A stretch of 59,596 bases of DNA from a virus (Duplodnaviria > Caudoviricetes), in IMG/VR virus record IMGVR_UViG_3300037296_000151, positions 1-59,596 of that record. One strand, written 5' to 3'. The notes below the pieces were generated by a model. It saw nothing but the letters and a program-made list of their open reading frames with translations, searched no databases and had not been told where the DNA came from. Both the position numbers and the translations under genes were made by a program. Shown here piece by piece: positions 8,045 through 59,596 of the stretch. Within the stretch, counting starts at the first letter, position 1, and every line of letters starts with the position of its first letter.

Positions 8045-8086
8045 TTTCGGGTGGCGCGGCGGTAGCTTCCCAGCGGCCACTACATA

Positions 8087-8139
8087 TGGTATTAAGAGGA
8101 AACCTTCGCGCATGATGTGCGGTTTTCGGCAGGACGCCG
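8087..8139 (+). promoter_or_regulatory. Extended -10 plus two CsrA-type hairpins upstream of the tail fibre gene
   Basis: TGgTATTAA at 8087; TCGCGC-ATGAT-GTGCGG 8106-8122; CGGC-AGGAC-GCCG 8127-8139. Confidence 0.7.
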
Positions 8140-8169
8140 GATCTTCAACATCACCGCAGGGGCTCCTTC

Positions 8170-9642
8170 ATGGCATGGTATGGCACTGGCACGGTCAACG
8201 TCACAAACGGCTCCACCGCCGTTACCGGGACAGGGACCGAATTTATCTCTGGCTTGCAGGCTGGATGGGGCTTTGTCGGCCCCGATGGGCGAACCTATGA
8301 GATTGCCTCGATCCAGAGTGCAACCGGCCTCACGCTCTCCGCCCCCTACCTCGGATCGACACAGACCGGACAAGACTACGCGGCCTTTCCAACGCAAAGC
8401 CTCGCAGCCGACCTGACAGCCGCGATCAACACGCTGATTTCAGACTTCCAAGGCGTCAAAGATGGCGCTGGATCAGGCAAGTTTGGTAACGGCACCGCCG
8501 CCGCACCCGGCATGGCCTTTCTGGCAGATCAAGACACCGGCTTTTCCCGCCCGGCGGCAAACCAACTCGCCACGTCAACAGGCGGGGTGCGGCGCTTGCT
8601 GCTGTCAAGTTCTGCCTATCAGGTCGATGTGCCGATCACCGGCACGGCGGTTCAAGCCAGCGCCACCGATACCACAGTGGGGCGGCTTATGGCCGTGGGT
8701 GCTTTTGGCTTGGGGGCTGACGCTCTGCCGCAGGTCTCAGACCTTAATGGCATTAACGTCTCTGGTCTCTATCGTATTCTTGTGGCTAATGCCGCCGCTG
8801 GCAATGCACCCACAAACCATAACTATGTGGTACTGCACGCCTCATATGACACCAACAACGAAACCCAAATGGCGCAGCGTATTGCCATTGCTGACCCCGA
8901 GGTGTGGTTTCGTGTCAGAAACGCCACAGGCTGGCAACCGTGGGAGCGGGTACTGACCAGTGCTGAGGTTCAATCCAGCGCGACGGATACCACGGAGGGG
9001 AAATTGCTTACTGTCGGCGCTTTTGGGCTTGGGCAGAAAGCGACTACACCCGAAATACCGTCTTTCAGTGCCGCAGACACGCCTGCAGGCCGGTATCACT
9101 ATGTTCCGACTTCTGTAGGAGTGGCTGACGCACCGGCCGCAGCTTCAGGCAACGGGATGATTGTGGTTGACCGAGCGTTTGCCAATTCGCTGCGTCAGAC
9201 ACTTACCGAGAATAACGGGGGGTCAATCGGTGGCGCTACTTGGTCACGGACCTATAATGGGACCGGCGGTTGGTCACCGTGGCGCAAACACTATGACAGC
9301 CGAAATATTATCGGCACTGTCTCGCAATCGGCAGGCGTCCCAAGCGGCGCGGTGATTGAGCGCGGCAGCAACGCCAACGGGGAATATGTGCGGTTTGCGG
9401 ATGGGACGCAAATTTGCACACATCAAGTGAGTGCCGACGCTGCTGCGGAAGTGGCTTGGACTTTCCCAGCGGCTTTTTCGGCTACACCTTCTGTTTTGGG
9501 CACCCCGAATGTCGGGGGTCTAGCCCGTTATGCGACCATAGGATCACTTTTTTCCTCATCTGTTAAGCTATGGGCGTGGAATGGCAGTGGGGTTCGGGCA
9601 AATTCCGCTGTGCTTATGACTGCCATTGGCCGCTGGTTCTAA
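8170..9642 (+). CDS. Tail fibre with two pyocin-knob-like modules, 490 aa
   Basis: N-terminal WYGTGTVNVTNGSTAVTGTGT; repeated DTTxGxLxxVGAFGLG; GSNANGEYVRFADGTQIC C-terminus. Confidence 0.88.
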   Translation: MAWYGTGTVNVTNGSTAVTGTGTEFISGLQAGWGFVGPDGRTYEIASIQSATGLTLSAPYLGSTQTGQDYAAFPTQSLAADLTAAINTLISDFQGVKDGAGSGKFGNGTAAAPGMAFLADQDTGFSRPAANQLATSTGGVRRLLLSSSAYQVDVPITGTAVQASATDTTVGRLMAVGAFGLGADALPQVSDLNGINVSGLYRILVANAAAGNAPTNHNYVVLHASYDTNNETQMAQRIAIADPEVWFRVRNATGWQPWERVLTSAEVQSSATDTTEGKLLTVGAFGLGQKATTPEIPSFSAADTPAGRYHYVPTSVGVADAPAAASGNGMIVVDRAFANSLRQTLTENNGGSIGGATWSRTYNGTGGWSPWRKHYDSRNIIGTVSQSAGVPSGAVIERGSNANGEYVRFADGTQICTHQVSADAAAEVAWTFPAAFSATPSVLGTPNVGGLARYATIGSLFSSSVKLWAWNGSGVRANSAVLMTAIGRWF

Positions 9643-11298: not shown

Positions 11299-11336
11299 TG
11301 CTAATGTAAGCGCAATTCCCCGCGCAGGACGTGCGG
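11299..11336 (+). promoter_or_regulatory. Extended -10 plus CsrA-type hairpin
   Basis: TGcTAATGT at 11299; CCGCGC-AGGAC-GTGCGG 11320-11336. Confidence 0.7.
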
Positions 11337-11367
11337 CCACACGCAAGAGAAATGCGAAAGGCCAGCC

Positions 11368-11868
11368 ATGTCCACCGACACCCCCACAACCCGCGCAGAG
11401 CCGCCCTTCGACACTGAAGCGTGGCGCGATCTGCGCAATCGTAAGCTGCAAGAGTGGATTGGGGATGCCAGCGCCATCGCCTTCCTACAGCAATTTGGCG
11501 ACTTCTGTGAGGTCATTGACGACCTTTGGGACCAAGATAAGCCCGTCACCAAGGACGACCTGACGCGCGTGCTCTTCGTCGCCATGACGGAAATGCCGCT
11601 GAACCCCTTCTTTGATCGCTTCAAAGGCCAGCTTGTGCCGGTCATGGTCACAGGCATCAACGCTTGGCTCGATGCCAACACGCTTGAGCAGGGCAGCGAG
11701 AACGACAAGGTGTTCGCCTATGTCCTGCGCGATTGGTACGCCGAGTTGATCGCCTTTGTGATCTACCTCGCACGCGGGCGAGACTACATGCGCGCCGTGA
11801 GCATGGAGGTGCGCCACTTCTTCACACATCAAGAGAGCCTTGAAGAGTACAAGGAGGATTTGACATGA
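11368..11868 (+). CDS. Helical protein with DDxxD motif (isoprenoid-synthase-like?), 166 aa
   Basis: VIDDLWDQD; ATGA coupling to the next gene. Confidence 0.75.
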   Translation: MSTDTPTTRAEPPFDTEAWRDLRNRKLQEWIGDASAIAFLQQFGDFCEVIDDLWDQDKPVTKDDLTRVLFVAMTEMPLNPFFDRFKGQLVPVMVTGINAWLDANTLEQGSENDKVFAYVLRDWYAELIAFVIYLARGRDYMRAVSMEVRHFFTHQESLEEYKEDLT

Positions 11869-15805: not shown

Positions 15806-15838
15806 GACCCCGGCCTTGACAGCCGGGGTCTTTTTTTT
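15806..15838 (+). terminator. Rho-independent terminator
   Basis: GACCCCGGC-CTTGACA-GCCGGGGTC followed by T8. Confidence 0.92.
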
Positions 15839-15878: not shown

Positions 15879-15915
15879 TGCTATCGTCGGCTAAATCCCC
15901 GCGCATGATGTGCGG
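15879..15915 (+). promoter_or_regulatory. Extended -10 plus CsrA-type hairpin upstream of darB
   Basis: TGcTATCGT at 15879; CCGCGC-ATGAT-GTGCGG 15899-15915. Confidence 0.7.
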
Positions 15916-27900: not shown

Positions 27901-30900
27901 GCCTCATGGATCAGGTGAGCGAGATGTATCCCAATCTGACCGGGCCTGACCTTGTGGAAGAAGCCATCGCGGAAATGTACCGCGAGTGGTCGGACAAGAA
28001 AGACCGCGATCTATCGAGCCCGCAAGGCAAGGCGATGGAGAAGCTGCGCCAGATCATCGAGGCTATCGTCAACGCGCTACGCGCCAACGGGGCCAACGAG
28101 GCGGCGGCAGTGTTTGACCGTATCCGGTCGGGCGAAATCGGCGGGCGCGGGCCTGACGGGACCAGCCCGCAAGGGCCGGGGGGCGGCGTCAAGGCGCGTG
28201 TCTCGGGCAAGGGCATCACGCGGGGCATCCCCTTCGGCACCGCGCACCTCAAGACCCAGAACGTCAAAGAACGGGTGTCGAGCTTCCTCACCGACGTTAT
28301 GGGCGGCGGCGTGCAGGCCGGGGCAAATGCGCTTGGCCTTGTGCCGGGCCGCCCCTTGATCGAAGAGCTAGGCAAGCGCCTGCCAGCACTGCAACGCTAT
28401 CTCGGACTGAAAGAGAAGATGGACGCCGACCGGCAGCAGTGGCACGCCAAGACCGATGAAGTCGCGCAAGAGTGGATCAAGCTGGGCAAGAAGGATACCG
28501 AGGCCAATGGCCGCCTTATGGACCTGATGCACCGCTCCACCATTGCGGGCGTCGATCCTTCCAAAAACTTCGCCGTGTTCAAGGGCGAGAAGGCCAGCGA
28601 CAGGAATGCACGTTACCGCTCTTTCGCGTCGTTCAAGGCTGAGTTCGATGCTCTGCCGGCCGATTTTCAGGAGATGTTCGGCAAGGTGAAGGACGCCTAT
28701 ACTGAAATGGCCGACGCCTTCGAGGAAGCCGTGCTTGAGAACGTGCGCAGCGCGCAGCAAGTGGCCTTGCGCAAAGCGGAGCGGGCCTACCGCAAAGCAG
28801 TCAAGCGCGTAGAAGATGATGGGCTCACAGGGCAGGAGCGCGACGACGCGCTCGCAGAGGCGCAAGCGCGTGTCGATGCCGCCCGCGCTAATGTCGGATG
28901 GGCGCAGAAGGCGCGGCTCGCGTCCCTGCGATCCGAGTTCGAAAGCAACCGGCTGACCGGCCCTTATTTTCCCCTGGCACGTTTCGGCAACTACTTCGTT
29001 GGCGGGCGCAATCCCAAGAGTGGCGAGATTGAAACGTTCTCTCGGTTTGAAAGCGAGCAGGACCAGAAAGAGGAAAGCCGCCGCCTTGAGGAAGAGGGTT
29101 ATGAAGTCGAAAGTGGCGTGCTGGGCGGGCAGGATGCCGACCTGAAAGGCATGGTCGATCCTAACTTTGTGGCCGATATTCAGGAGCTACTTGCCGACAG
29201 CGGCGCAGATGAAGGTATCATGGACGCTGTGTGGCAACGCTGGCTGGAAACCTTGCCGGATATGTCCGTGCGTAAGAACCGTATCCACCGGAAGGGGCGT
29301 GCGGGCTTTAGCAAGGACGCGCTTCGTGCCTTCGCGCACCACCAGTTCCACGGCGCTCACCAGCTTGCGCGCCTGCGCTATGGCCTCAAGATGGGCGACG
29401 AAATCGACCAAGCCTATGAGGAAAGCGAAGAGGTAGCTGATGCGACCAACCGCAACCGGGCAACGCTGGTGGTCGATGAAGTCGCGCGCCGCCATAAAGA
29501 AACCATGCGCCCGAAGGTGGCCGCATGGGCGAGCGCAATGTCGGGGCTGGCTTTCACTTGGTATCTGGCGCAGACCCCCGCCGCCGCTATCGTCAACCTG
29601 TCTCAGACAACCGTGGTCGGCGTGCCGTTGATGAAGGCGGCCTTCGCGGGCTCTTCGGTGAAGGACGTGACCGTTGAGCTTGGCAAGGCGGCAGCGGAAT
29701 TTGCGCGTGGCGGTGTCAACAAGGGGGCGGAAGCCTCCAAGAACCTAACGGAAAAGGAGCGCGAGGCGATGCGCGAGGCGCATAAGCGCGGCATCGTGGA
29801 CAAGACGCAGGCGCATGACATCGCAGGCGTTCAAGAAACGGGGCTCGAATACTCTGGCGAGCGCGAGAAGTGGATGAAGCGCCTTTCGTGGATGTTCCAC
29901 AAGGCCGAGGTGGCAAACCGCGAGACGACCTTCCTCGCCTCTTACCGGATGGCGCGCAAGAACGGCTCGCCGCACGCCGAGGCCATCGAGAAGGCGGGCA
30001 AGCTGACGTGGAAGATCCACTTCGACTATCAGCACAGCAGCCGCCCGCGCTTCATGCAGAACGATTACATGCGCGTGCTGACCATCTTCCGCCAATTCAC
30101 CGTGAACATGCTTTACCGCATGGCACGAGACACGCACCAATCGCTGAAAGGGGCGACCCCAGAAGAGCGCACCGAGGCGCGGGCGCAGTTGGCAGGCATT
30201 ACGCTCTCCATGGCCGCGCACGCGGGCATCACAGGCGTTTGGGGCTATGGGCTGGTTATGTCGGTGCTGGGCATGATCCTGCCCGGCATGGACGACGACG
30301 ACGTTGAGGAATGGGTGCAAGACGCGCTCTTGCTCGAAGGCGACAGCATCGGCACGGCGGCATGGAATTACGCGATGGGCATGGCGCTCAAGGGCGTTCC
30401 CGGCCACGTCACCGGCATCAATCTGACCAGCCGTATCGGCATGGCTGACCTTTGGTTCCGCGCGCCGTACAAAGACCTCGAAGCCGAAGACAGCATCCAG
30501 CACTACATGAACGAGCTTGCCGGTCCTATCCCGTCTATCGCGTTCAGCGTAGGCCGGGGCATCGAGCAGGTGTTGAACGCGGGCTCCTTCCGCGAGGTTA
30601 TGCGCGGCGTCGAAACGGCAACGCCAAAGGCAGTCAACGATTTACTGCAAGCTGGCCGCTATGCAGTCGAAGGGGTGCAGACGCGCCGCGGCGATCCGGT
30701 GCTCGAAGACGTGGGCATGAAGGACGTGCTAGTGCAGGCGTTTGGCTTCACCCCTGCGGCAGTGGGCGAGGCTTACGACAAGGCCGGGCGCATGAAGCAG
30801 CTAGAGCAGCGGATCACCGACAAGCGGTCGCGCCTGCAACAGCGGGTTGGTGATGCGGTTCTCAAGGGCAAGCCGGTCAGCGAGAAGCTGATGCGACAGA

Positions 30901-31067
30901 TCAGGGACTTCAACGCGGCGCACCCGACTTACCCGATCAGCCGCAAGACGATCACGCAGTCGGTGAAGGGGCGGCTTCGGTATTCCAACGGCTTTGACGC
31001 CGGGGCGAATATCAATCCGAAGTTGCGCCAGCAGATCGAGGACAGTCTCGCTCCGCGTCTATACTGA
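15948..31067 (+). CDS. darB: Giant DarB-like polyvalent protein (N6-adenine MTase, SNF2 helicase, zincin, PLxRFG domain), 5039 aa
   Basis: VLEPSVGIG at 22371; NPPF at 22572; GAGKT at 24696; DEAH at 25203; QREGRIVRQGN; HEIIH at 27792; PLARFG at 28971. Confidence 0.9.
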   Translation: MAENVFAILPTEYEARKAKADAEGRDIFDNPKLPSLEDGSPDYDALGGQYQVPPNIIKAVADSAGVDPKQAPEFAARAAAAIGKELQSGKDVPTALKTILGDEAATAELLKYADGIARQREGAEPVEAEDEQGRLSKAFEMGEKGAIKRGHEFARDASAAVEEGAFGQGVAGLREKAENALFVGEDGNPNALGRVVNAGRKMAEKGDGLSRPTVGGEKVTQEERAEDLRSNVSPMAQAAEARLKELSEGGFEIMDWRDIRGLGSAVQFMGENIATSLPQMGASMASGPFQPLVTITLLGGEANEELKERTELSEADRVAVATGAGTAMWALETIGLGRVFGGLVPSQVAKQALKGELSETLIKAGFKRSAARVLEAGIAEGSTEALQEGIVMGATAAAGGKYERGEVIDRLTSAFAGGAGAGAGLRAGAEPMAAMRDRREARDQQGSGGDGDTPAAGVPPIQPGGAPQSPPAPDAGPQAGPLPPAPAPTPAPTIEHPPLGPLAQAAARAPDLAVPDAEQGGMVEVQTLDGETFTAEFVEEGPGGIRVRDEQGEFTIPRADIEAGTQVKPVREQAVRFPDMKPGKEVSLEAPDGKVYRSTFLEETQGGVAVRIGGERVELSDREFDLAIDAAFLQEQQAKGGQKADAAPATETTETPTATAPEAPAAPQTSADPVETAQETDPVAFAEAERAEKVERRRAVIEREISATEAEEGFNLTPQERKSLTDRAMEEGGALDVSGATREILKTPPPLSEEVVDQGDVPPLFDEETTEPATGTLDEDAAPEEAAPQDPSQDWDSMDEVGRDKALRAAGYVTKNGKLNAPGRKALSSPWADLSPKVQAAIGGQSEPAAEAAPEPDEAELKRRDRVAKHDEWKAKADQAEQSIEVDERLPGKQAQGVPTAAYRVAPWPDGGYAVNVSANTGNGGFGAPFTPGFDTKEAAVEEAQKRIREHAQAVLADKNATESDSSKKEAQKILDWLDARGPAPEPEAVQGDDFDRDMTDKMISVRADIRAKEPVTVTGSKVTIGKNTITTREYQEQLARITSEDAHNASMKAALRSKLAELAATEPEAAPEAAAEPTIENIRTKAAVLRGVPKDQAPDVGNVSLKWDDREGGFIFSRKHTDKVRAALEASRPTTPETEVGQGEATEPDQKPIGARTDSGPRVLINLVGPDGLTDAERGKPYEKAEETPAPKPEEAKPADAPEITVHTTGGSLGSMTINGAKAIAISLVADGRGKSSGMDRGFKHYADQWFGKNRIKSPKGHIFIQPDHALDAFYFKRSEIEAYLNRGKTKPDAKPAPKAPAKKTTGADRPMADLTKLDYEGFDDKTREDGQNSPGKREARSETGRWARSVVKLLREAGFTDTLNAKGKKQKAVSFGWGMRHEPDETSIHLTAPNGADLYVRMGSSMSRGKALSILVQFRGEPEKPGYSKSFLGSNEFLDETMTPAEAVEKIIQWSKRGDPKQEKAKEEPTAWKPTVENYPFSDSEAGNPGPQARRWFEAASDDLLLNPKVNGFGLADNWLRAELKRRKIGIYTPSDKEAEPAEKPAPVKDTTPAADASPDFDAMFDDVRAEVEGKPEPKVSKADRDAERAKAAGAQAALDGRERQTPGWAVGTPAARVWIDAYDSTKKADKAEGWQSNKGLSLFKRVMGQSNNSLEDMRTGVFPEVAEYADWLGSLTDAELDKIAPVFRDDFNPFHGATFLGNGGIAEAEAAFAEVGVVREKPEADAEVSAQQERDDWARQLEDGYDLYAPGEVIPDAGPGAIPFKQWTVVSPGQFAAGVGDSPQQAVEAYLNRQDEGDSAPQDRSAGEAASSAAKNTGQAVNDALDGLVELFGGKNTLSSGLTFSAETYEKAKPLFIAAAQGFRDAGRDIKDVMRAVVRELVGRGANLDQMKPYVVRFTEDVHSGKISLNPDQETPDAGRPVRQNADEPLAGVEPEAVSPDAEGGNAGAGSEQAGARNRGPRKSDDASGDAAPRGGRNGKGRPVSGTRSRLEDPQTPKSKAVKKSRNSEIPQADFEITDDLRLGRGGEAEKFSDNIAAIETLKAIEAENRRATPDEQSVLARYVGWGGLANAFRVAGSAEGEGVAKGWEKRVAQLEDLLEPEELKAARNSTKAAHYTSELVTKAVWKAAQKAGFRGGAVLEPSVGIGNFLGLMPKELRGKSPVMAVEYDSLTARIAKHLYPNATVLHSGFQDVPLPDGQFALATGNPPFGRDRLRFQHLPGINGKTIHHQFFEASLHALEPGGILSMVVSRYIMDGKSAENRISLARRAELVGAIRLPSSAFRENARTEVVTDILVFRKHEATPDEVNAAIFIATGQGSLPKDITTEGMETAQRLADGMKKWLNVTEFQDPKGSGETLAMNEYFHRNPSMVVGEIGATGTMHKSNELGVTLDASELPAKLEAAIERLPERAPKDGIAERTAERFERLSDAMRLSLLGVEPGDVRVDEDGRIISVVEQMDGDKPILSEQEINADTPYTAEYFIGTDGKWRREIDKLDADGKKIKRKNKEGKLTNLNVKEVQVVEDPASIPSAAKWGEKRIEQLRDMLPIRDAFKRQVELEAQNATDKKIEANRQALKAAYDSFKKKHGALHQPRIRNITDGLPDGGLILAVEELTSKPGERQVKVADAPILSKRIITPTVARESAANMDEAITISLSETGGLDTERMASLLGKSVPDIEAALAEGDAPRGFYDPEQSKWVTSDEYLSGEVRRKLAAAERAGLDANVDALNKVAPAPWGPAEITPALGANWIPRQVYADFLKHLGYKTAAVKYQALTNTYGIDVDGKPGAAWATSGRAWSPVKITEAMMNSSSIRVTYRNADDKTVVDEEATAESQSKGEEIFNEFQDWAFADQARRDQLVEIFNGLFNTRVTRQRDGSHLSLPGANPSIKMRRHQNNAIWRGITDRVVLYDHVVGAGKTFTAIARVMERRRMGLSRKPMIVVPNHLTEQWAKDWRLLYPGAKLLVAGKKDFEKVNRRRLFARIAAGDYDAVIIGHSQITMVAMDPEVEIKYLEDELRNALDAVKEAEDQAAEDGTDSGRFKPFGVKEAERLVTKLEERMAKVRSKKRDNLITFQQMGVDDLTIDEAHEFKNLAYSSRLTGVSGMGNKEGSQKAIDLHLKLRSLHDSNASMSFLTGTPISNSVSEMYLLLRNLAPNQLREMGLENFDAWRSMFVSATSEWEPTEAGGLKEVTRLGREWTNMRTLMDLYYSVSDAVTLDDIKEAYAEDNNGAEFPVPRVKGDKKGEGRRMVAVKPGPEQTRILNDIVAGFDGLPGISDPMERAAERLRLMDKARKVALDPRAVDPKNAADPEGGKIRAVVDNIARIYRAFDADKGTQVVFLDRSVPKSKGDKKVVAEYDAALKAYDDAIRAQDDKKIAAAIEKLEKFDNNDIDARRAALAGGWNAYDEIKDQLVAQGIPEHEIAFVQNADTEVKKKSLFAEVRSGKVRVILGSTPRMGAGTNVQDRLVALHHVDVTWKPSDIEQREGRIVRQGNMLLDQYGQADFEVEVLAYATERTVDAKMWDLNGQKLRAINGIRKYDGSFLMEFEDAESASMAEMAALATGNPLMVERIKLDGAKKKLLAKQRTFNKQRNANRAKLSSAERTLDTADARAALYEQTAKAIQKARDEIEKRSAKRSIEVEGKTYGSIDEAVDAIDAAIAEQRGDKENGRFRIKIAGLPVTTQSDASKLVREAFGREGFEASVGGETFIDPHEAGKAMASALNKALADQANLDTQSLDGLSVMGMALEVTVNDSWGGDKSASVSVLHDGREVWENTYYSKNGAITSGEFTATLNKIDRTLTPDRFEGAAQYQRDAKAEAIAEIPEIKKTLEREWPQAGELDEVNKRLDTVIAGLEGGTNAAQEPEGEGDLKAKRRVTGRGIPYSKEVGQAVIQDLKAELKQAGIEGRVRLHIAPKFNHQGQTLDGYFLDGMIGVGTEAHDGAMGILRHEIIHALRDSRLWGQSHGLFTPAEWRALVRAARTDKRLMDQVSEMYPNLTGPDLVEEAIAEMYREWSDKKDRDLSSPQGKAMEKLRQIIEAIVNALRANGANEAAAVFDRIRSGEIGGRGPDGTSPQGPGGGVKARVSGKGITRGIPFGTAHLKTQNVKERVSSFLTDVMGGGVQAGANALGLVPGRPLIEELGKRLPALQRYLGLKEKMDADRQQWHAKTDEVAQEWIKLGKKDTEANGRLMDLMHRSTIAGVDPSKNFAVFKGEKASDRNARYRSFASFKAEFDALPADFQEMFGKVKDAYTEMADAFEEAVLENVRSAQQVALRKAERAYRKAVKRVEDDGLTGQERDDALAEAQARVDAARANVGWAQKARLASLRSEFESNRLTGPYFPLARFGNYFVGGRNPKSGEIETFSRFESEQDQKEESRRLEEEGYEVESGVLGGQDADLKGMVDPNFVADIQELLADSGADEGIMDAVWQRWLETLPDMSVRKNRIHRKGRAGFSKDALRAFAHHQFHGAHQLARLRYGLKMGDEIDQAYEESEEVADATNRNRATLVVDEVARRHKETMRPKVAAWASAMSGLAFTWYLAQTPAAAIVNLSQTTVVGVPLMKAAFAGSSVKDVTVELGKAAAEFARGGVNKGAEASKNLTEKEREAMREAHKRGIVDKTQAHDIAGVQETGLEYSGEREKWMKRLSWMFHKAEVANRETTFLASYRMARKNGSPHAEAIEKAGKLTWKIHFDYQHSSRPRFMQNDYMRVLTIFRQFTVNMLYRMARDTHQSLKGATPEERTEARAQLAGITLSMAAHAGITGVWGYGLVMSVLGMILPGMDDDDVEEWVQDALLLEGDSIGTAAWNYAMGMALKGVPGHVTGINLTSRIGMADLWFRAPYKDLEAEDSIQHYMNELAGPIPSIAFSVGRGIEQVLNAGSFREVMRGVETATPKAVNDLLQAGRYAVEGVQTRRGDPVLEDVGMKDVLVQAFGFTPAAVGEAYDKAGRMKQLEQRITDKRSRLQQRVGDAVLKGKPVSEKLMRQIRDFNAAHPTYPISRKTITQSVKGRLRYSNGFDAGANINPKLRQQIEDSLAPRLY
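21706..21930 (+). CDS. Overprinted 74-aa ORF in the +1 frame inside darB (TnpV-like helical pattern)
   Basis: AGGAG SD before ATG 21706; TTTACC-17 nt-TAAAAT promoter at 21648-21676; protein-like sequence. Confidence 0.65.
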   Translation: MLADQYAKTLMNHWQEWSPKRFRRMQKAGTLEQEANKQGREIEDRVKVMMRQGMQRHEAEEMVRDDLYPAPEAD

Positions 31068-31080
31068 ATGGGTGGTCCTG

Positions 31081-31117
31081 TGCTATAACAGGGCCATCCC
31101 CCGCGCATGAGGTGCGG
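31081..31117 (+). promoter_or_regulatory. Extended -10 plus CsrA-type hairpin upstream of the endolysin
   Basis: TGcTATAAC at 31081; CCGCGC-ATGAG-GTGCGG 31101-31117. Confidence 0.7.
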
Positions 31118-31142
31118 CACCCTAGCAAAACAGGTGCGCCTC

Positions 31143-31973
31143 ATGTCGATCCAGCTTGGTACTCTCCGTCACGATATTTTTGAGGTCCAAACGGGCCTCA
31201 AGCACTCTGGCTATGATCCCGGCCCGCTCGATGGCTTCTGGGGGCCGCGTACCTTTGATGCGGCCACGGCCTTCATCGCCGGGGGCAGCAAGACCGGCTC
31301 CCGTTGGGCGATCACCGAAATGGGCGAGGGGCTGCGCGATCTAGGCTGGCTCTCTGACGATCCGCTGATTGCCAGCGCAGAGGTCGTGCGCGAGGCGCTA
31401 ATCAACCTCACGGCGGCCTATGGTGCCCCACGCGCCGCCTATGAGCCTGACTACGCCAGCGATCCGCTTGTCTCGAAGACAAAGCCTGCCCTCGCCTCGA
31501 TCAGCGAGGGGCGTGTGATCGAGCAGGCGGGCAATGTCGTCACCCTTCTGGTGCTGCACACATCGGCAACCTCTGGGACGTGGTGGCGCGGCAAGACCGT
31601 CGAGCAGATGCGCGACGAGTTCGACCGCTGGCACCGGGCAAAGGGCTGGAATGGCGTCGGCTATCATGGCGTTTATGCACCGGATGGCAGCAGCGCACCG
31701 GGCCGACCCTACGAGCAGCAGGGGGCGCATGTGAGCGGGCACAATGAGGGCTCCATCGGCTTTTGCATGGTCCCGATTAGAACGATCGACAAGATGGGGC
31801 ATTGGTCGACCTATTACACGCCGGAGCAAGTCGCGGCAGTACGCCGGGATCTGCACAAGCTCGCAGAGCGCACGCCCATCGCGCGCCTTGCCGGGCACAA
31901 CGAGTTCAGCAACAAGCTCTGCCCCGGCTTCGTGGTCGAAGACAAGGAGTGGACGGAGCTCGCAGTCGCATGA
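31143..31973 (+). CDS. Endolysin: PG-binding domain plus N-acetylmuramoyl-L-alanine amidase (Amidase_2)
   Basis: GYDPGPLDGFWGPRT; LVLHTSA, GWNGVGYH, GAHVSGHN, GHNEFSNKLCPGF. Confidence 0.9.
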   Translation: MSIQLGTLRHDIFEVQTGLKHSGYDPGPLDGFWGPRTFDAATAFIAGGSKTGSRWAITEMGEGLRDLGWLSDDPLIASAEVVREALINLTAAYGAPRAAYEPDYASDPLVSKTKPALASISEGRVIEQAGNVVTLLVLHTSATSGTWWRGKTVEQMRDEFDRWHRAKGWNGVGYHGVYAPDGSSAPGRPYEQQGAHVSGHNEGSIGFCMVPIRTIDKMGHWSTYYTPEQVAAVRRDLHKLAERTPIARLAGHNEFSNKLCPGFVVEDKEWTELAVA

Positions 31974-56118: not shown

Positions 56119-56132
56119 CCGCCCGCAACCCC

Positions 56133-56150
56133 TCGCATGAAGTGAAAGGA
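56133..56150 (+). promoter_or_regulatory. CsrA-type hairpin abutting the SD
   Basis: TCGC-ATGAA-GTGA then AAGGA. Confidence 0.6.
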
Positions 56151-56157
56151 CCACCAC

Positions 56158-56739
56158 ATGACCGGAGCCCTCTACGCCCGACGCCCCAACCCGGTAAAGG
56201 CCGTGCAGTGGCGCAAACACGGCGACCACCCCGATGTCACGCCTGCCGTGGATTGGCCCGGCACAGCGTCCGACACCCAAGGGAAAATTCGCATCCCCGG
56301 CCAAGGCATCATGCTTGTGAGCCCCGGCGATTGGATCGTGGACGGGCTCTCTGTCCACAACCCGCACCGCTTAATCATCCCTGCCGGCCGATTTGCGGAA
56401 GACTACCAACCCTACCCAACCAAGGAGAGAACCATGAGTGAACAAGACATCGAGGCAGAGATTGTCGCCAAGGGCAAGACCGCGCCACGCATCACCCCCG
56501 ACATGCTCGACGCAGAGATTGCAGACGAGGATTACCACGTCTTCAAAGGCTCATGCCTGACCATCTGCGTGCTGACGCTGCAAAACGGCTACAGCGTCGT
56601 GGGGCAAAGCGCCTGCGCCGATCCGGCCAACTTCGACGCCGAGATTGGCCGCAAGATTGCCCGCGAGAACGCCCGCAACGCCATCTGGCCGCTCTTGGGG
56701 TTCCGCCTCAAGGACCAACTGGCGCGGGGGGAAAGCTGA
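56158..56739 (+). CDS. Fusion of unknown AVQW/PGDWI domain and N4 Gp49/Sf6 gp66-family domain (internal start at 56434), 193 aa
   Basis: APRITP...LTICVLTLQNGYSVVGQSAC.DPANFDAEIGRKIA...IWPLLGF; internal AAGGAG SD. Confidence 0.8.
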   Translation: MTGALYARRPNPVKAVQWRKHGDHPDVTPAVDWPGTASDTQGKIRIPGQGIMLVSPGDWIVDGLSVHNPHRLIIPAGRFAEDYQPYPTKERTMSEQDIEAEIVAKGKTAPRITPDMLDAEIADEDYHVFKGSCLTICVLTLQNGYSVVGQSACADPANFDAEIGRKIARENARNAIWPLLGFRLKDQLARGES

Positions 56740-57302: not shown

Positions 57303-57309
57303 CACCAAC

Positions 57310-57326
57310 CGCATGACGTGAAAGGA
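57310..57326 (+). promoter_or_regulatory. CsrA-type hairpin abutting the SD
   Basis: CGC-ATGAC-GTG then AAAGGA. Confidence 0.55.
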
Positions 57327-57332
57327 AACCAC

Positions 57333-58211
57333 ATGGCGGAACACGACGACGATCTTCTCACAGAGGAAGAAATGGCAGCACTCGAAGCCGAAGAAGGCGA
57401 AGAGGTGGATGGCTCCGCGTCTCTCGAAGAGGATGCAGAGGCTTGGGCACGCTCCGGCTGGAAAGAACAGGGCATGGCCGCAGCCGACGACGACGAGGAC
57501 GACGAACCCGACGCGCAGCAGGAAGAGCCCGCGCCGCAGGAAGAGCCGAAGGAGCCTGAACAGCCCCGCGTCTCTACGTCCGAGTTGGACAAGCAGTTGT
57601 CCGATCTGCGCAAGCAGGACGACGAATTGCTCGATCAGTACGACGATGGCGACCTCACCCGCGAGGAACTGGCCGCCGCGCGTGCTGAGTTGCAGTCGAA
57701 GGCCGACGACCTGACCTCTTCTAAAGCTCTTGAAATGGCCCGCGCCGAGCAGGAAATGAAGGCGTGGAAAGCCAGCGTGGGCGGATACCTGAAAGAGTAT
57801 CCCGGCCTCAAGGACGACAAGGTGATCGAAGCCTTTGATGCCGAGGTGCGCGCAGTCACGTCGAGCCGGGCCTATGCCAGCATGACCTATGAGCAGCAGT
57901 TGGCACTGGCACACAAGCGTCTCGCGGCGACAGGCGAGGACATCGGCCTCGATGTGCCACCGCTCAAGGGTCGCAAGCAGGCTGACCCAGACCCGAAGCC
58001 GGGCAAGAAGTCAGAGGCCAAGGGCGAGGATCTGGGCGGCGTGCCAAAGACCCTTGCCCGCGTGCCTGCGTCGGATCGCACCGACGAGGATGGCGGCAAG
58101 TATTCGGCGCTACAGAAGATCGTGGACCGAGGCACCCCTGACGAAATCGAGGAAGCCTTGGGCCGCCTCTCGGAAGAAGAGCGCAACCGCTTTTCCTCCA
58201 TGCAAACCTAA
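57333..58211 (+). CDS. Putative capsid scaffolding protein, 292 aa
   Basis: Acidic N-terminus, coiled coil, position before capsid; SD favours ATG 57333. Confidence 0.75.
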   Translation: MAEHDDDLLTEEEMAALEAEEGEEVDGSASLEEDAEAWARSGWKEQGMAAADDDEDDEPDAQQEEPAPQEEPKEPEQPRVSTSELDKQLSDLRKQDDELLDQYDDGDLTREELAAARAELQSKADDLTSSKALEMARAEQEMKAWKASVGGYLKEYPGLKDDKVIEAFDAEVRAVTSSRAYASMTYEQQLALAHKRLAATGEDIGLDVPPLKGRKQADPDPKPGKKSEAKGEDLGGVPKTLARVPASDRTDEDGGKYSALQKIVDRGTPDEIEEALGRLSEEERNRFSSMQT

Positions 58212-58228: not shown

Positions 58229-58414
58229 TTGCTGGTTTTGAAGCTCAAAGCATCCGACAGGGTTATGATCGGCTCCACAGTCGTCAATGTCCGTGAAATC
58301 GGCAACGGCAGGGTGCGTCTCGCTATCGACGCACCCACCGATGTTCCGGTGACGAATGAGAGTGCACCATCGGCGCACCGAAAAGAGGGGATTGACAAGC
58401 CCTCTTCCCGTTGA
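58229..58414 (+). CDS. csrA: CsrA/RsmA-like RNA-binding protein, 61 aa
   Basis: MLVL...VMIG...V.V......VRLAIDAP..V.V aligns by eye with CsrA; AAGGA SD, TTG start. Confidence 0.8.
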   Translation: MLVLKLKASDRVMIGSTVVNVREIGNGRVRLAIDAPTDVPVTNESAPSAHRKEGIDKPSSR

Positions 58415-58424
58415 CCCCTACATA

Positions 58425-58491
58425 TGGTATGAAGGGGCATCACTAAGCGCATGATGTGCTTGTGCAGGTAACTTAATAACCCGCATGAGGA
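58425..58491 (+). promoter_or_regulatory. Extended -10 plus CsrA-type hairpin, and a second site on the capsid SD
   Basis: TGgTATGAA at 58425; AAGCGC-ATGAT-GTGCTT 58445-58461; CGCATGAGGA at 58482. Confidence 0.7.
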
Positions 58492-58498
58492 CATCAAA

Positions 58499-59596
58499 AT
58501 GCAGACGATCATCCCGTTTGGCGACGTGAAGGCCCAAAAAAAATGGTCTTCCAACCTCGCCGTCGACACCCTTTCCAAGAGCTACTTCTCGAAGAAGTTC
58601 ATTGGCAAAGGCGACAACAACATCATCGAGCAGAAGACCGAGCTTGAGAGCGACAAGGGCGAGAAAATCTCGTTCGACCTCTCCGTTCAGCTTCGCGGCA
58701 CCCCCACGCAGGGCGATAACCGCGTGAAGGGCAAAGAAGAAAACCTCAAGTTCTACACCGATGAAGTTATCATCGACCAGACACGGAAATCCGTTTCCGC
58801 TGGTGGTCGCATGACCCGCAAGCGTACCGCGCATGATATGCGCGTCGTCGCCAAGAACCGCTTGGGCGACTACTGGTCGAAGTATCTGGACGAGTTGATG
58901 TTCATGTACCTCTCCGGCGCGCGCGGCATGAACGAGGACTACATCGAGCCCGAAGACTTCACAGGTCACGCAGGCAACCCGATGCAGGCACCCGACAGCC
59001 AGCACATCGTTTATGGCGGTGACGCCACCTCCAAGGCCACGCTCGACGCCGCCGACACGCTCAACCGCGATGTCGTGGAAAAGGTTGTGACGCTGGCGAA
59101 GATGATGCGCGCTACCGATCCTGAAACCGCCAACATGGTCCCTGTGACCGTCGAGGGCGAGGATCGCTATGTCATGGTCATGTCGCCATTCCAAGAGCAC
59201 AACCTGCGTACCGACACCGGGGCGACAGGCTGGCTTGAGTTGCAGAAGGCCGCAGCCGCAGCCGAGGGCAACAAGAACAAGATTTTCAAAGGCGGCTTGG
59301 GGATGATTAACAACGTCATTCTCCACTCGCATGAAAGCGTTGTTCGCTTTGACGACTACGGCGCTGGTGGCAACGTCGCCGCAGCCCGCGCCCTGTTTAT
59401 GGGTCGTCAGGCCGGTGTCTGCGCCTATGGCACCACCAAGGGCCAGCGGTTCATGTGGAAGGAAGAAACGGAAGACTACGGCAACGAACCAACCGTTGTC
59501 GCGGGCACCATTGTCGGCGTCAAGAAGACCCGCTTCCGCAACAAGGACTTCGGCGTGATGTCGATCGACACCGCCGCCAAGAAGCCCGGCACCTAA
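58499..59596 (+). CDS. Major capsid protein (N4-gp56/DUF4043 family), 365 aa
   Basis: ISFDLSVQL, GKEENLKFY, RALFMGRQAG, DYGN, KDFGV. Confidence 0.93.
   Translation: MQTIIPFGDVKAQKKWSSNLAVDTLSKSYFSKKFIGKGDNNIIEQKTELESDKGEKISFDLSVQLRGTPTQGDNRVKGKEENLKFYTDEVIIDQTRKSVSAGGRMTRKRTAHDMRVVAKNRLGDYWSKYLDELMFMYLSGARGMNEDYIEPEDFTGHAGNPMQAPDSQHIVYGGDATSKATLDAADTLNRDVVEKVVTLAKMMRATDPETANMVPVTVEGEDRYVMVMSPFQEHNLRTDTGATGWLELQKAAAAAEGNKNKIFKGGLGMINNVILHSHESVVRFDDYGAGGNVAAARALFMGRQAGVCAYGTTKGQRFMWKEETEDYGNEPTVVAGTIVGVKKTRFRNKDFGVMSIDTAAKKPGT
59368..59596. repeat. Terminal direct repeat, right copy
   Basis: Matches 1-229 with a 2-nt difference. Confidence 0.97.

What the first reader, a model, noticed from the sequence alone, without database searches (positions are those of the whole stretch)
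58229..58491. Candidate self-contained phage CsrA regulon with a shifted (AUGA) loop code
Seen: a CsrA-like gene sits directly before the capsid gene, and one hairpin family, stem-GC[A(T/G)GAN]GT-stem, recurs in late-gene leaders: 8106 (tail fibre), 11320 (ejection operon), 15899 (darB), 31101 (endolysin), 56133 (anti-defence cassette), 57310 (scaffold) and 58445 (capsid). Related sites are CGGC-AGGAC-GCCG at 8127, GCAGGACGC on the terS SD (51164) and CGCATGAG on the capsid SD (58482). The outer stem covaries (CC/GG at 15899, AA/TT at 58445) and the seven main copies keep a G-U wobble next to the closing pair, which points to RNA rather than a DNA operator. Known: CsrA/RsmA binds GGA loops such as the CAGGA(U/C)G repeats of CsrB, and CsrA is largely absent from Alphaproteobacteria. 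Seen: most loops here read AUGA, and the CsrA H43-R44 positions (VHREE) are T-N (VTNES). Inference: the phage brings its own CsrA with relaxed or altered specificity to control virion, lysis and anti-defence genes. I recall csrA-like genes being annotated in Bcep22-like phages but know of no described target motif.
Basis: partly seen in the sequence, partly recalled or inferred. Interest (0 to 1): 0.92.

Follow-up and report, generated by a model that had tools for sequence, protein, structure and literature searches.

The report
Phage CsrA gene and leader switches
A phage carries its own small CsrA-type RNA-binding protein next to its capsid gene, and five of its late messages begin with one small hairpin that can instead fold back over the start codon, which points to an untested switch for making virus parts; the proposed special "AUGA code" is better explained by RNA-RNA pairing.

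Summary
The 61-aa ORF (58229-58414) is a true CsrA-family protein (Pfam 39.4 bits, cut-off 27; fold match to CsrA/RsmE). It has T-N where CsrA has H43-R44. The hairpin is real. GCGCANGANGTGC occurs 5 times, all on the late strand, against 0.13 expected. Each copy lies 12-14 nt after a TGnTA element and before the capsid, tail-fibre, virion-protein, giant-protein or amidase gene. The sites at 56133 and 57309 are weaker. Of 154 distinct capsid leaders from related phages, 125 keep the hairpin. New here: loop plus 3' arm is complementary to the cognate start-codon region (-10.1 against -7.1 kcal/mol for non-cognate pairs; 0 of 2000 permutations). The variable loop base pairs U-A 46, G-C 43 and A-U 7 times. 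So "AUGA" reads as an anti-start-codon, and a protein code is not shown. The R44/GGA association (36/10/5/47) fails a phylogenetic test, genomes mix loop types, and exceptions run both ways. Six capsid-related phages without csrA lack the capsid-leader hairpin; H66, which has csrA, has four copies. Best reading (confidence 0.5): the phage's own CsrA acts on bistable late leaders, probably opening the occluded start site. Binding is untested. This scan noted the same system before on other DNA; I found no paper describing it.

The parts
58229..58414 (+). csrA-like gene, 61 aa, last gene after the scaffold-like gene; T43-N44 in place of H43-R44
   Evidence: Pfam PF02599 39.4 bits, cut-off 27. 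PHROG 9500. Alignment to CsrA chains. Profile of 36 phage homologues hits RsmE 2jpp at E 9.9e-13. AF2 model pLDDT 84.7; the ten best fold matches are all CsrA/Rsm chains.
58425..58433 (+). TGGTATGAA, extended -10-like element of the capsid unit (inferred promoter)
   Evidence: Shared TGnTAnnnn 12-14 nt before the GCGC of all five hairpins. Not called by the consensus scan.
58444..58462 (+). P1 hairpin of the capsid leader: UAAGCGC-AUGAU-GUGCUUG
   Evidence: RNAalifold on 12 close relatives predicts it, with compensatory outer pairs.
58449..58502 (+). Alternative long 'closed' hairpin: P1 loop, 3' arm and following bases pair with the SD (GAGGA 58487-58491), the spacer and the AUG (58499-58501)
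   Evidence: MFE -24.3 kcal/mol, z -3.5. Forcing P1 costs 10.2 kcal/mol and frees the AUG. Family-wide cognate complementarity.
58499..59596 (+). Major capsid gene
   Evidence: phrog_334, E 1.2e-123.
8087..8172 (+). Tail-fibre leader: TGGTATTAA, P1 8106-8122 (AUGAU loop), second hairpin CGGC-AGGAC-GCCG 8127-8139, ACAUCA complement, ATG 8170
   Evidence: Tail fibre PHROG 2712, E 1.1e-64.
11299..11370 (+). Leader of the 11368 operon (unknown protein, then a virion structural protein): TGCTAATGT, P1 11320-11336 (AGGAC loop); GGACGUG pairs with CAUGUCC at the start codon
15879..15950 (+). Leader of the 5039-aa virion protein gene: TGCTATCGT, P1 15899-15915 (AUGAU loop). Here the bases 3' of P1, not P1 itself, pair with the GUG start.
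   Evidence: Intrinsic terminator-like site 15806-15830 just upstream.
31081..31145 (+). Amidase (lysis) leader: TGCTATAAC, P1 31101-31117 (AUGAG loop); CAUGAGGUGC pairs with GCGCCUCAUG including the start codon 31143
   Evidence: Amidase PHROG 822, E 1.3e-33.
56131..56160 (+). Weak related site inside the operon: UCGC-AUGAA-GUGA next to the AAAGGA SD of the gene at 56158
   Evidence: (2 mismatches to the core). A like site in one relative, L008.
57307..57336 (+). Weak related site before the scaffold-like gene: CGC-AUGAC-GUG next to the AAAGGAAA SD

Best explanation
The phage encodes its own CsrA-family RNA-binding protein as the last gene of the terminase-portal-scaffold block. Five separately started late units (capsid, tail fibre, a virion-protein operon, the giant virion protein, the lysis amidase) begin with the same 5' element. 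That element can take two forms. One is a short local hairpin, P1: GCGC/GUGC stem, C-G closing pair, A-N-G-A(N) loop. In relatives this is exactly the A(N)GGAX-type loop that CsrA proteins bind. The other is a longer helix in which the P1 loop and 3' arm pair with the Shine-Dalgarno to start-codon stretch of the same message and hide it. The closed form is predicted to be the more stable one. I infer that the phage protein binds the P1 loop, holds P1, and so keeps the start site open. Capsid, tail, ejection and lysis proteins would then be translated only once the portal-scaffold-csrA block has been expressed. The U in 'AUGA' is there because CAUGA pairs with UCAUG at the start codon. Shown: family membership and fold of the protein; the repeated element and its placement; its conservation; the cognate complementarity; the co-occurrence with csrA-like genes. 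Inferred: transcript starts, the switch, protein binding, and the direction (activation).
For: Protein. Element: 5 exact copies against 0.13 expected, all on the late strand before gene starts.

Conservation: csrA-like ORF upstream of the capsid gene in 165 of 207 related loci. In loci without it there, a hit elsewhere in the record or genome in 5 of 5 and 15 of 22. A strict hairpin is present in 125 of 154 distinct capsid leaders. Related genomes carry 2-5 GUGC-type copies on the capsid strand; 32 of 42 non-capsid sites have the extra C-G pair.

Closed helix: cognate duplex -10.1 against -7.1 kcal/mol non-cognate, 0 of 2000 permutations. Variable positions pair as U-A 46 / G-C 43 / A-U 7, and at the next variable position G-C 51 / U-A 20 / C-G 19 / A-U 7. 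The helix touches the start codon in 88 of 123. The MFE pairs the start codon in 94 of 123. Non-capsid leaders: -14.1 against -13.1, 7 of 5000 permutations.

RNA rather than DNA: sense folds beat antisense, -20.2 against -18.0, in 80 of 123, p 1.8e-7. P1: RNAalifold picks it in two sub-alignments, with compensatory outer pairs. When P1 is forced the start codon is mostly free in 79 of 123.

Hosts lack CsrA: the only Pfam hit is the prophage copy in 4 of 5 host genomes, and there is none in the fifth.

Outgroups: 6 of 6 capsid-related phages without a csrA-like gene have no capsid-leader hairpin. Phage H66, with two csrA-like genes, has 4 GUGC-type copies (5 pattern matches), all on one strand, and 0 on the other.

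Precedent: CsrA activates ymdA by destabilising an SD-sequestering structure (abstract of PMC7492729).
Against: No binding, transcript or expression data exist for this phage; the sequencing-run look-up is told under Tried and rejected. The window's protein lacks R44, which a review legend calls essential for RNA binding (PMC7366521), and has no basic residue at 43-47. Four of its five loops lack GGA.

The P1 core is almost invariant (pair types C-G 123; G-U 113; C-G 117; G-C 112 of 123). The four core pairs were also required by my selection, so they carry little covariation. Outer pairs are paired in 53-54% of leaders against 39-42% in shuffles. P1 appears in only 6 of 123 MFE structures, and forcing it costs 7.7 kcal/mol on average.

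Within the window's own clade the closed structure is 86.8% paired, but no better than column shuffles. In the giant-gene leader P1 does not compete with the start-site helix (cost 0), and in the tail-fibre leader the cost is only 1.6 kcal/mol.

Seven of 22 genomes gave no csrA-like hit at E<=0.01. At E<=5 only L095 gains a plausibly placed one. L110, and perhaps L097, keep the leader without a detected csrA.

Co-occurrence is largely one clade's shared ancestry; H66 is the only outside point. The consensus scan finds no promoter at the five sites. Direction (activation or repression) rests on predicted energies only.
Confidence: 0.5

Rival explanations
1. The leaders are protein-independent RNA devices: a 5' stem-loop for stability plus a start-site-occluding helix opened by ribosomes, temperature, an RNase or co-transcriptional kinetics. 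The CsrA-like protein does something else, for example acts on host messages ('moron') or has an assembly or virion role.
For: The closed helix explains the loop sequence without any protein. The window's protein lacks R44. L110, and perhaps L097, keep the leader with no csrA-like hit found. JC1's CsrA gave one peptide in purified virions, and the authors call the gene a moron (passages of PMC9144972).
Against: The gene is fixed between the scaffold and capsid genes in 165 of 207 loci, which does not fit an accessory moron. The hosts checked have no Csr system to plug into. The P1 loop with its C-G closing pair is the known CsrA/RsmE target shape, A(N)GGAX, in 57 of 154 capsid leaders (AGGA 51, AUGGA 6; PMC4005645 passages). 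Phages without the gene lack the hairpin in 6 of 6, and H66 has both.
Confidence: 0.2
2. Canonical CsrA-type repression or homeostasis. The dimer bridges the P1 loop and the GGA of the Shine-Dalgarno and blocks ribosomes, perhaps relieved by a partner protein as assembly proceeds. This would resemble CsrA-FliW control of flagellin in Bacillus (recalled, not read here).
For: Two sites at a workable spacing: the P1 loop and the SD lie about 25-35 nt apart in most capsid leaders. A second CAUGAGGA-type motif sits on the capsid SD in the window's clade. Most characterised CsrA targets are repressed (abstract of PMC7492729). The position between scaffold and capsid suits a stoichiometry control.
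Against: The start site is already hidden by RNA in the predicted ground state (94 of 123), so a repressor would be redundant. In that state both candidate sites are base-paired. No FliW-like partner was looked for.
Confidence: 0.15
3. One reading: the protein has a changed specificity (T-N at 43-44) that reads AUGA loops instead of GGA loops, a shifted code that co-evolves with residue 44.
For: Raw association in 98 phages: GGA loop with R44 in 36, GGA without R in 10, no GGA with R in 5, no GGA without R in 47. All 6 AUGGA hexaloop leaders have R44.
Against: Of 11 phylogenetically independent pairs, 3.5 go the same way, 1.2 go the opposite way and 6.3 show no change; median p 0.6. L024 and L153 have R-R with only AUGA loops. 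L182 has R-H with four AGGA loops. H66 has Q-N (aligned by eye) with three AGGA loops. The window itself mixes 4 AUGA and 1 AGGA. In solved complexes R44 touches the loop backbone or stacks on the first A, not the first G (PMC4005645 passages). The loop base covaries with its RNA partner.
Confidence: 0.1
4. The repeat is a DNA operator (inverted repeat) for a late transcription factor, not an RNA element.
For: Fixed distance from the -10-like element. The repeat is palindrome-like.
Against: A G-U (G-T in DNA) is kept in P1 in 113 of 123. Sense folds are more stable than antisense, p 1.8e-7. The partner sequence tracks the start codon at variable distance.
Confidence: 0.03

Closest known systems
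CsrA/RsmA/RsmE and their hairpin operators (RsmE-hcnA, PDB 2jpp; RsmZ stem-loops)
   Same: Same protein family and fold. The target-like element is a short hairpin with a C-G closing pair and an A(N)GGA(X) loop in many relatives, plus a GGA on the Shine-Dalgarno (PMC4005645 passages).
   Different: The gene is phage-borne in hosts without CsrA. The window protein has N at position 44. Four of its five loops have UGA, not GGA. The element is also one strand of a start-site-occluding helix. No sponge RNA is known.
CsrA-mediated translational activation of E. coli ymdA
   Same: The 5' leader forms a structure that hides the ribosome-binding site, and the CsrA sites lie in the strand that must be pulled away (abstract of PMC7492729). 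The same logic is predicted here.
   Different: ymdA is a single host gene under a global regulator. Here it is a repeated, conserved module on 2-5 late units per phage, with the regulator encoded alongside. Activation is only inferred.
'CsrA-like regulator' genes annotated in Bcep22-like and related podophages (Bcep22 gp54, GP4, JC1 gp47, LASTA gp20)
   Same: Same gene in the same place, between scaffold-like and capsid genes. The Bcep22, LASTA and Itty13 capsid leaders carry the same hairpin.
   Different: In the papers I could search, the gene is treated as a moron that may alter host biofilm or metabolism, or as possibly virion-associated (PMC9144972, PMC8310193, PMC7366521, PMC8450108; passages only). 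None names a target in the phage's own messages.
CsrA-FliW-flagellin partner switch of Bacillus subtilis (recalled; only the title of PDB 5dmb was seen)
   Same: A CsrA protein that controls translation of the most abundant structural subunit of a self-assembling machine through sites in its leader.
   Different: No FliW-like partner was sought or found. The mechanism there is repression; here the leader is self-occluding.

Membership tests
CsrA/RsmA protein family (Pfam PF02599) | Sequence match above the curated family threshold | tested here: met
   39.4 bits against a cut-off of 27, residues 1-42. A profile of 36 phage homologues hits RsmE at E 9.9e-13.
CsrA/RsmA protein family (Pfam PF02599) | CsrA protomer fold (beta strands 1-5) | tested here: met
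   AF2 model: pLDDT 84.7, above 90 over residues 1-40. The ten best Foldseek matches are all CsrA/RsmA/RsmE chains: TM 0.59-0.62, rmsd 1.8-2.1 A over 44-45 columns, probability 1.00. The Foldseek E-values are only 7e-3 to 4e-2, as expected for so short a chain. The C-terminal helix is not predicted; residues 45-61 have low confidence.
CsrA/RsmA protein family (Pfam PF02599) | Interlocked homodimer | tested here: inconclusive
   One job was run; see Tried and rejected.
CsrA/RsmA protein family (Pfam PF02599) | Conserved Arg44, needed for RNA binding | tested here: not met
   N44 in the window protein. Among 98 relatives, 41 have R and 57 do not.
CsrA/RsmA protein family (Pfam PF02599) | Binds GGA-containing RNA | not testable with these tools
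   Needs EMSA, ITC or CLIP.
CsrA-controlled mRNA leader | GGA in the loop of a short hairpin, plus a second site at the Shine-Dalgarno | tested here: inconclusive
   Window: 1 of 5 P1 loops has GGA and 4 have UGA. Relatives: AGGA 51, AUGGA 6, AUGA 48, AAGA 19, ACGA 1, no strict hairpin 29, of 154. A GGA on the SD is uninformative.
SD-sequestering leader opened by CsrA (ymdA type) | Leader structure that hides the ribosome-binding site, with the candidate protein site in the competing strand | tested here: met
   Predicted only: the MFE pairs the start codon in 94 of 123 leaders. Forcing P1 frees it in 79 of 123. Cognate complementarity: 0 of 2000 permutations.
SD-sequestering leader opened by CsrA (ymdA type) | The protein raises translation | not testable with these tools
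   Needs reporter, toeprint or knock-out experiments.
Any Rfam RNA family | Match to a curated covariance model | tested here: not met
   0 matches at gathering scores in the whole window. Only chance-level rows (E 0.9-7) on 58380-58520.

The most novel reading that the evidence does not exclude
A CsrA-fold protein serves as the protein 'ligand' of a riboswitch-like leader module that phages of this large group place on 2-5 late units. By trapping the 5' hairpin it frees the start codon, so that capsid, tail, ejected-protein and lysis synthesis waits for the portal-scaffold block. This would be a self-contained assembly-order checkpoint working in hosts that have no Csr system. In the window's clade the protein would do this without Arg44, by a changed binding mode that accepts A-N-G-A loops.
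Probability: 0.3. Interest if true: 0.8.

Novelty: new variant of a known kind. Interest (0 to 1): 0.62.

Why it matters
Phage csrA-like genes have been annotated since Bcep22. The papers I could search treat them as accessory genes that tamper with host physiology. The comparison here gives the gene a concrete, testable target in the phage's own late messages. It also shows that the target is one half of a conserved two-state leader that hides the start codon. If binding is confirmed, this would be a compact protein-operated translational switch, reused on several operons and spread over hundreds of phages of Alpha-, Beta- and Gammaproteobacteria, including hosts with no Csr system. It would be a natural example of CsrA acting as an activator. 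It would also be a portable part (one 61-aa protein plus a leader of about 60 nt) for synthetic control. Finally, it corrects the attractive idea of a shifted 'AUGA code': the U is explained by pairing with the start codon.

Tried and rejected
A tblastn of the 61-aa protein against the phage collection found nothing at E<=0.01. The protein is too short and diverged; relatives were reached through the capsid gene instead.

Rfam gave no family. No tRNA was found.

Homodimer job (complex prediction, two copies, alignment A3): the verdict was 'no answer', score 0.37 against a mark of 0.42. I count it neither for nor against.

Sequencing runs: one DNA holder (X1, possibly the source) and no RNA holder were listed.

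The consensus promoter scan called none of the five TGnTA elements.

Fixed-column counting of the closed helix failed family-wide. MAFFT does not keep the two strands in register when the loop is 4 or 5 nt, or when the helix slides by 1-2 nt relative to the AUG (A4 and A6). I therefore used per-sequence duplex folding with permutation controls. That method optimises each duplex, so the pair tallies lean towards pairing; the permutations are the control. No covariance model was built.

On the 12-sequence clade alignment, the closed structure did not beat column shuffles.

Residue-44/loop covariation was considered and rejected as unproven.

Papers: Gill et al. 2011 (PMC3187461) is not held, so I cannot say what that paper states about gp54 or promoters. 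In PMC13443453 a term search for R44, phage, position 44 and non-GGA found nothing. Supplements were not opened; supplementary tables of PMC7366521 and PMC8450108 list csrA-positive phages and may bear on distribution.

The claim that no target motif is in print rests on searches of the held library only.

I considered a short upstream ORF starting at the loop AUG and dropped it: it has no SD, is not conserved, and is absent from AGGA loops (by eye).
Full report
WHAT IS THERE. The window is a whole virus record, 98% complete by CheckV. Its layout is that of Bcep22-like podophages: terminase, portal, scaffold-like gene, a small ORF, capsid; then virion, tail-fibre, giant-protein and lysis genes. 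The nearest capsid relatives are prophages in Roseovarius (83%), Thioclava (79%) and Roseicyclus (77%). Roseovarius belongs to the Rhodobacterales, Alphaproteobacteria.

The small ORF at 58229-58414 is a CsrA-family protein:
- Pfam gives 39.4 bits against a cut-off of 27.
- PHROG 9500 is 'CsrA-like regulator'.
- A profile of 36 phage homologues hits RsmE (2jpp) at E 9.9e-13.
- An AlphaFold model (pLDDT 84.7) has CsrA/RsmA/RsmE chains as its ten best fold matches, with TM about 0.6 and rmsd about 1.9 A.
- Where CsrA reads V-H-R-E-E, this protein reads V-T-N-E-S.

THE HAIRPIN FAMILY. The sharper core GCGCANGANGTGC occurs exactly five times, all on the + strand, against 0.13 expected.

Each of the five copies:
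- lies 12-14 nt after a TGnTAnnnn element;
- extends to a 6-7 bp stem with a G-U next to the closing C-G;
- precedes one of these genes: capsid, tail fibre, an unknown protein plus virion structural protein, the 5039-aa virion protein, or an amidase.

A strong terminator-like site lies just before the giant-gene unit. The consensus sigma-70 scan does not call these elements, so the transcript starts are inferred.

The sites at 56133 and 57309 are weaker: 3-4 bp stems, no promoter-like element, directly abutting the SD. Among the relatives held with 3 kb of upstream sequence, I found a like site in only one.

RELATIVES. The csrA-like gene before the capsid gene is already annotated in Bcep22 (gp54), GP4 and LASTA. 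I gathered 207 loci with a capsid homologue. Some contigs were fetched twice; the set collapses to 154 distinct leaders.
- A csrA-like ORF lies upstream in 165 of 207.
- About a dozen of the 42 without one have too little flank.
- Of those with enough flank, 5 of 5 and 15 of 22 have a csrA-like hit elsewhere in the record or genome, often right after the scaffold-like gene.
- Seven of 22 have none at E<=0.01. Relaxing to E<=5 adds one plausibly placed hit, for L095.
- L110, and perhaps L097, therefore keep a leader without a detected csrA.

In 125 of 154 distinct capsid leaders a strictly defined hairpin is present (stem of at least 4 bp, C-G closing pair, loop A-N-G-A or AUGGA). The loop classes are AGGA 51, AUGA 48, AAGA 19, AUGGA 6, ACGA 1, none 29. 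Most of the 29 carry near-variants, by eye.

The pattern recurs 2-5 times on the capsid strand of related genomes, and 27 of 28 records have a match. Of 42 non-capsid sites (38 fetched plus 4 of the window), 32 have the extra C-G pair typical of the leader form; the rest look like chance hits inside genes.

THE NEW POINT: A SECOND, COMPETING HELIX. Folding whole leaders does not give the small hairpin. It gives a long one in which the P1 loop and 3' arm pair with the SD-to-AUG stretch:
- window capsid leader, -24.3 kcal/mol, z -3.5;
- Bcep22, -40.8 kcal/mol, z -6.6;
- the amidase and 11368 leaders behave alike.

Across 123 capsid leaders:
- The cognate duplex between 'GC + loop + GUGC' and the 20 nt around the start codon averages -10.1 kcal/mol, against -7.1 for non-cognate pairs; 0 of 2000 permutations reach the cognate value. 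A far-upstream control gives -5.1.
The next variable position shows all four Watson-Crick types.
- The helix touches the start codon in 88 of 123.
- The MFE pairs the start codon in 94 of 123 and keeps P1 in only 6.
- Sense folds are more stable than antisense folds (p 1.8e-7), as expected for RNA with G-U pairs.

Non-capsid leaders show the same tendency more weakly (7 of 5000 permutations). Some cases are striking, such as 12 perfect pairs in L239.

In short, CAUGA in the hairpin is the complement of UCAUG at the start codon. In GGA-type phages, GGA(N)GUGC pairs with GCAC(N)UCC just before the AUG.

IS P1 REAL? Its four core pairs hardly vary, and my selection required them, so they say little. 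Support comes from four points:
- compensatory outer pairs in the window's clade (A-U 6, G-C 3, G-U 1);
- variant stems that keep pairing;
- the 6-bp form in non-capsid leaders;
- the kept G-U: the same U pairs with A in the closed helix, as a base serving two partners should.

Forcing P1 costs 7.7 kcal/mol on average. In the window the costs are capsid 10.2, amidase 8.1, 11368 operon 6.4, tail fibre 1.6 and giant gene 0. Forcing P1 leaves the start codon mostly free in 79 of 123. All energies are model predictions.

THE 'SHIFTED CODE'. Raw counts look good: GGA with R44 in 36, GGA without R in 10, no GGA with R in 5, no GGA without R in 47 (n=98). On the capsid tree, however, GGA changes 15 times and R44 changes 9 times. 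Of 11 independent pairs, R44 goes the same way in 3.5, the other way in 1.2, and does not change in 6.3 (median p 0.6).

Exceptions run both ways:
- L024 and L153 have R-R with only AUGA loops.
- L182 has R-H with four AGGA loops.
- H66 has Q-N (by eye) with three AGGA loops.

Single genomes mix loop types. In solved RsmE complexes R44 contacts the loop backbone or stacks on the first adenine (PMC4005645 passages), so it is not an obvious reader of the first G. I therefore treat the code as not shown. What remains is that many of these proteins, the window's included, lack the arginine that a review legend calls essential (PMC7366521). That is evidence against canonical binding.

LINK BETWEEN GENE AND HAIRPIN. 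The hosts have no CsrA of their own. In five host genomes the only Pfam hit is the prophage copy (4 genomes) or there is none (1 genome). PMC7366521 says the same of Burkholderia cepacia and B. cenocepacia, and of S. meliloti.

Outgroups with capsids 25-32% identical were also checked:
- Six phages without any csrA-like gene at E<=1 have short scaffold-capsid spacers or plain leaders and no capsid-leader hairpin. They are Stx phage 75/02, Vibrio D96a, Aeromonas phiARM81mr, Microcystis Mae-JY35, Pseudomonas YMC17/07/R4900a and E. coli phi191. Each has only 0-2 background pattern hits.
- Pseudomonas phage H66 has two csrA-like genes. It carries four GUGC-type copies (five pattern matches), all on one strand, none on the other, and none in the controls. 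They lie next to csrA and before other genes, not before the capsid gene.
- LASTA and Itty13, both with csrA, have the hairpin on the capsid leader and once more on the same strand.

This fits a functional link. Apart from H66, however, it is one clade's shared history.

MECHANISM. I commit to the following. The phage protein binds the A-N-G-A(N) loop of P1, most easily while the leader is still being made. It thereby holds off the more stable closed helix, so the start site stays open. Without the protein the leader relaxes into the closed, silent form. This is the logic shown for CsrA and ymdA (abstract of PMC7492729). Because csrA ends the portal-scaffold block, the effect would be to delay capsid, tail, ejected-protein and lysis synthesis until that block has been expressed. 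Confidence is 0.5 for the link as a whole. Activation is favoured over repression only because a repressor of an already self-closed leader seems redundant. The rivals are given with their odds in the Rival explanations section.

PRIOR KNOWLEDGE. The papers I could search call the gene a moron, a possible virion component, a possible biofilm modulator or a possible anti-CRISPR device (PMC9144972, PMC8310193, PMC7366521, PMC8450108; passages only). None describes a target in phage messages, and four searches found no such description. Gill et al. 2011 could not be read.

This scan's own earlier notes describe the same gene-plus-leader system in many other genomes, including the fold-back on the start site. 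I reached the reading before seeing them. They are not independent evidence.

Noticed in passing
L006:2639-2875 and L044:2689-2952 (also L045, L046): The csrA-like ORF in these relatives looks like two CsrA-like repeats in one chain (79-87 aa). It may be a single-chain pseudo-dimer.
   Followed up: no
window 8080-8095 and 58418-58433; relatives: In the Rhodobacterales-type phages the promoter-like element is (C)ACAT(A/G)TGGTA(T/G), partly palindromic, with no -35 and sometimes repeated about 30 nt upstream. Burkholderia, Ralstonia and Rhizobiales relatives instead have a plain TTGCAA -35 and a TAnAAT -10. The former may need a phage factor.
   Followed up: no
window 15806-15830: A strong intrinsic-terminator-like hairpin with a run of eight T lies directly before the promoter-like element and hairpin of the 5039-aa gene.
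   Followed up: partly
window 58383-58406; L130, L133, L055 upstream of the capsid promoter-like element: A GC-rich hairpin overlaps the 3' end of csrA (AGAGGG...CCCUCU). In close relatives the matching hairpin is followed by a T run, so the csrA block probably terminates before the capsid unit. The scan tool did not call it in the window.
   Followed up: partly
L212:1372-1773 (-), L201 record: In the Rhizobium/Agrobacterium/Sinorhizobium prophage group the scaffold-like and csrA-like genes lie about 30 kb from the capsid gene, on the other strand of the record. The capsid leader still has the hairpin and its start-codon complement.
   Followed up: partly
W05 (Pseudomonas phage H66) 16918-17052 (-) and 33124-33285 (+): Two csrA-like genes in one phage. 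One hairpin copy lies inside the 3' end of the second csrA gene, 38 nt before the next gene's start.
   Followed up: partly
window 58482-58501 and A5 columns 42-61: In the window's clade the SD-proximal GCAUGAGGA can also pair with the start codon (CAUGA with UCAUG), giving a third, local hairpin that RNAalifold prefers.
   Followed up: no
window 15948-31067: One open frame of 5039 aa (giant virion protein). Only a weak PHROG match was found for its first 1000 residues.
   Followed up: no
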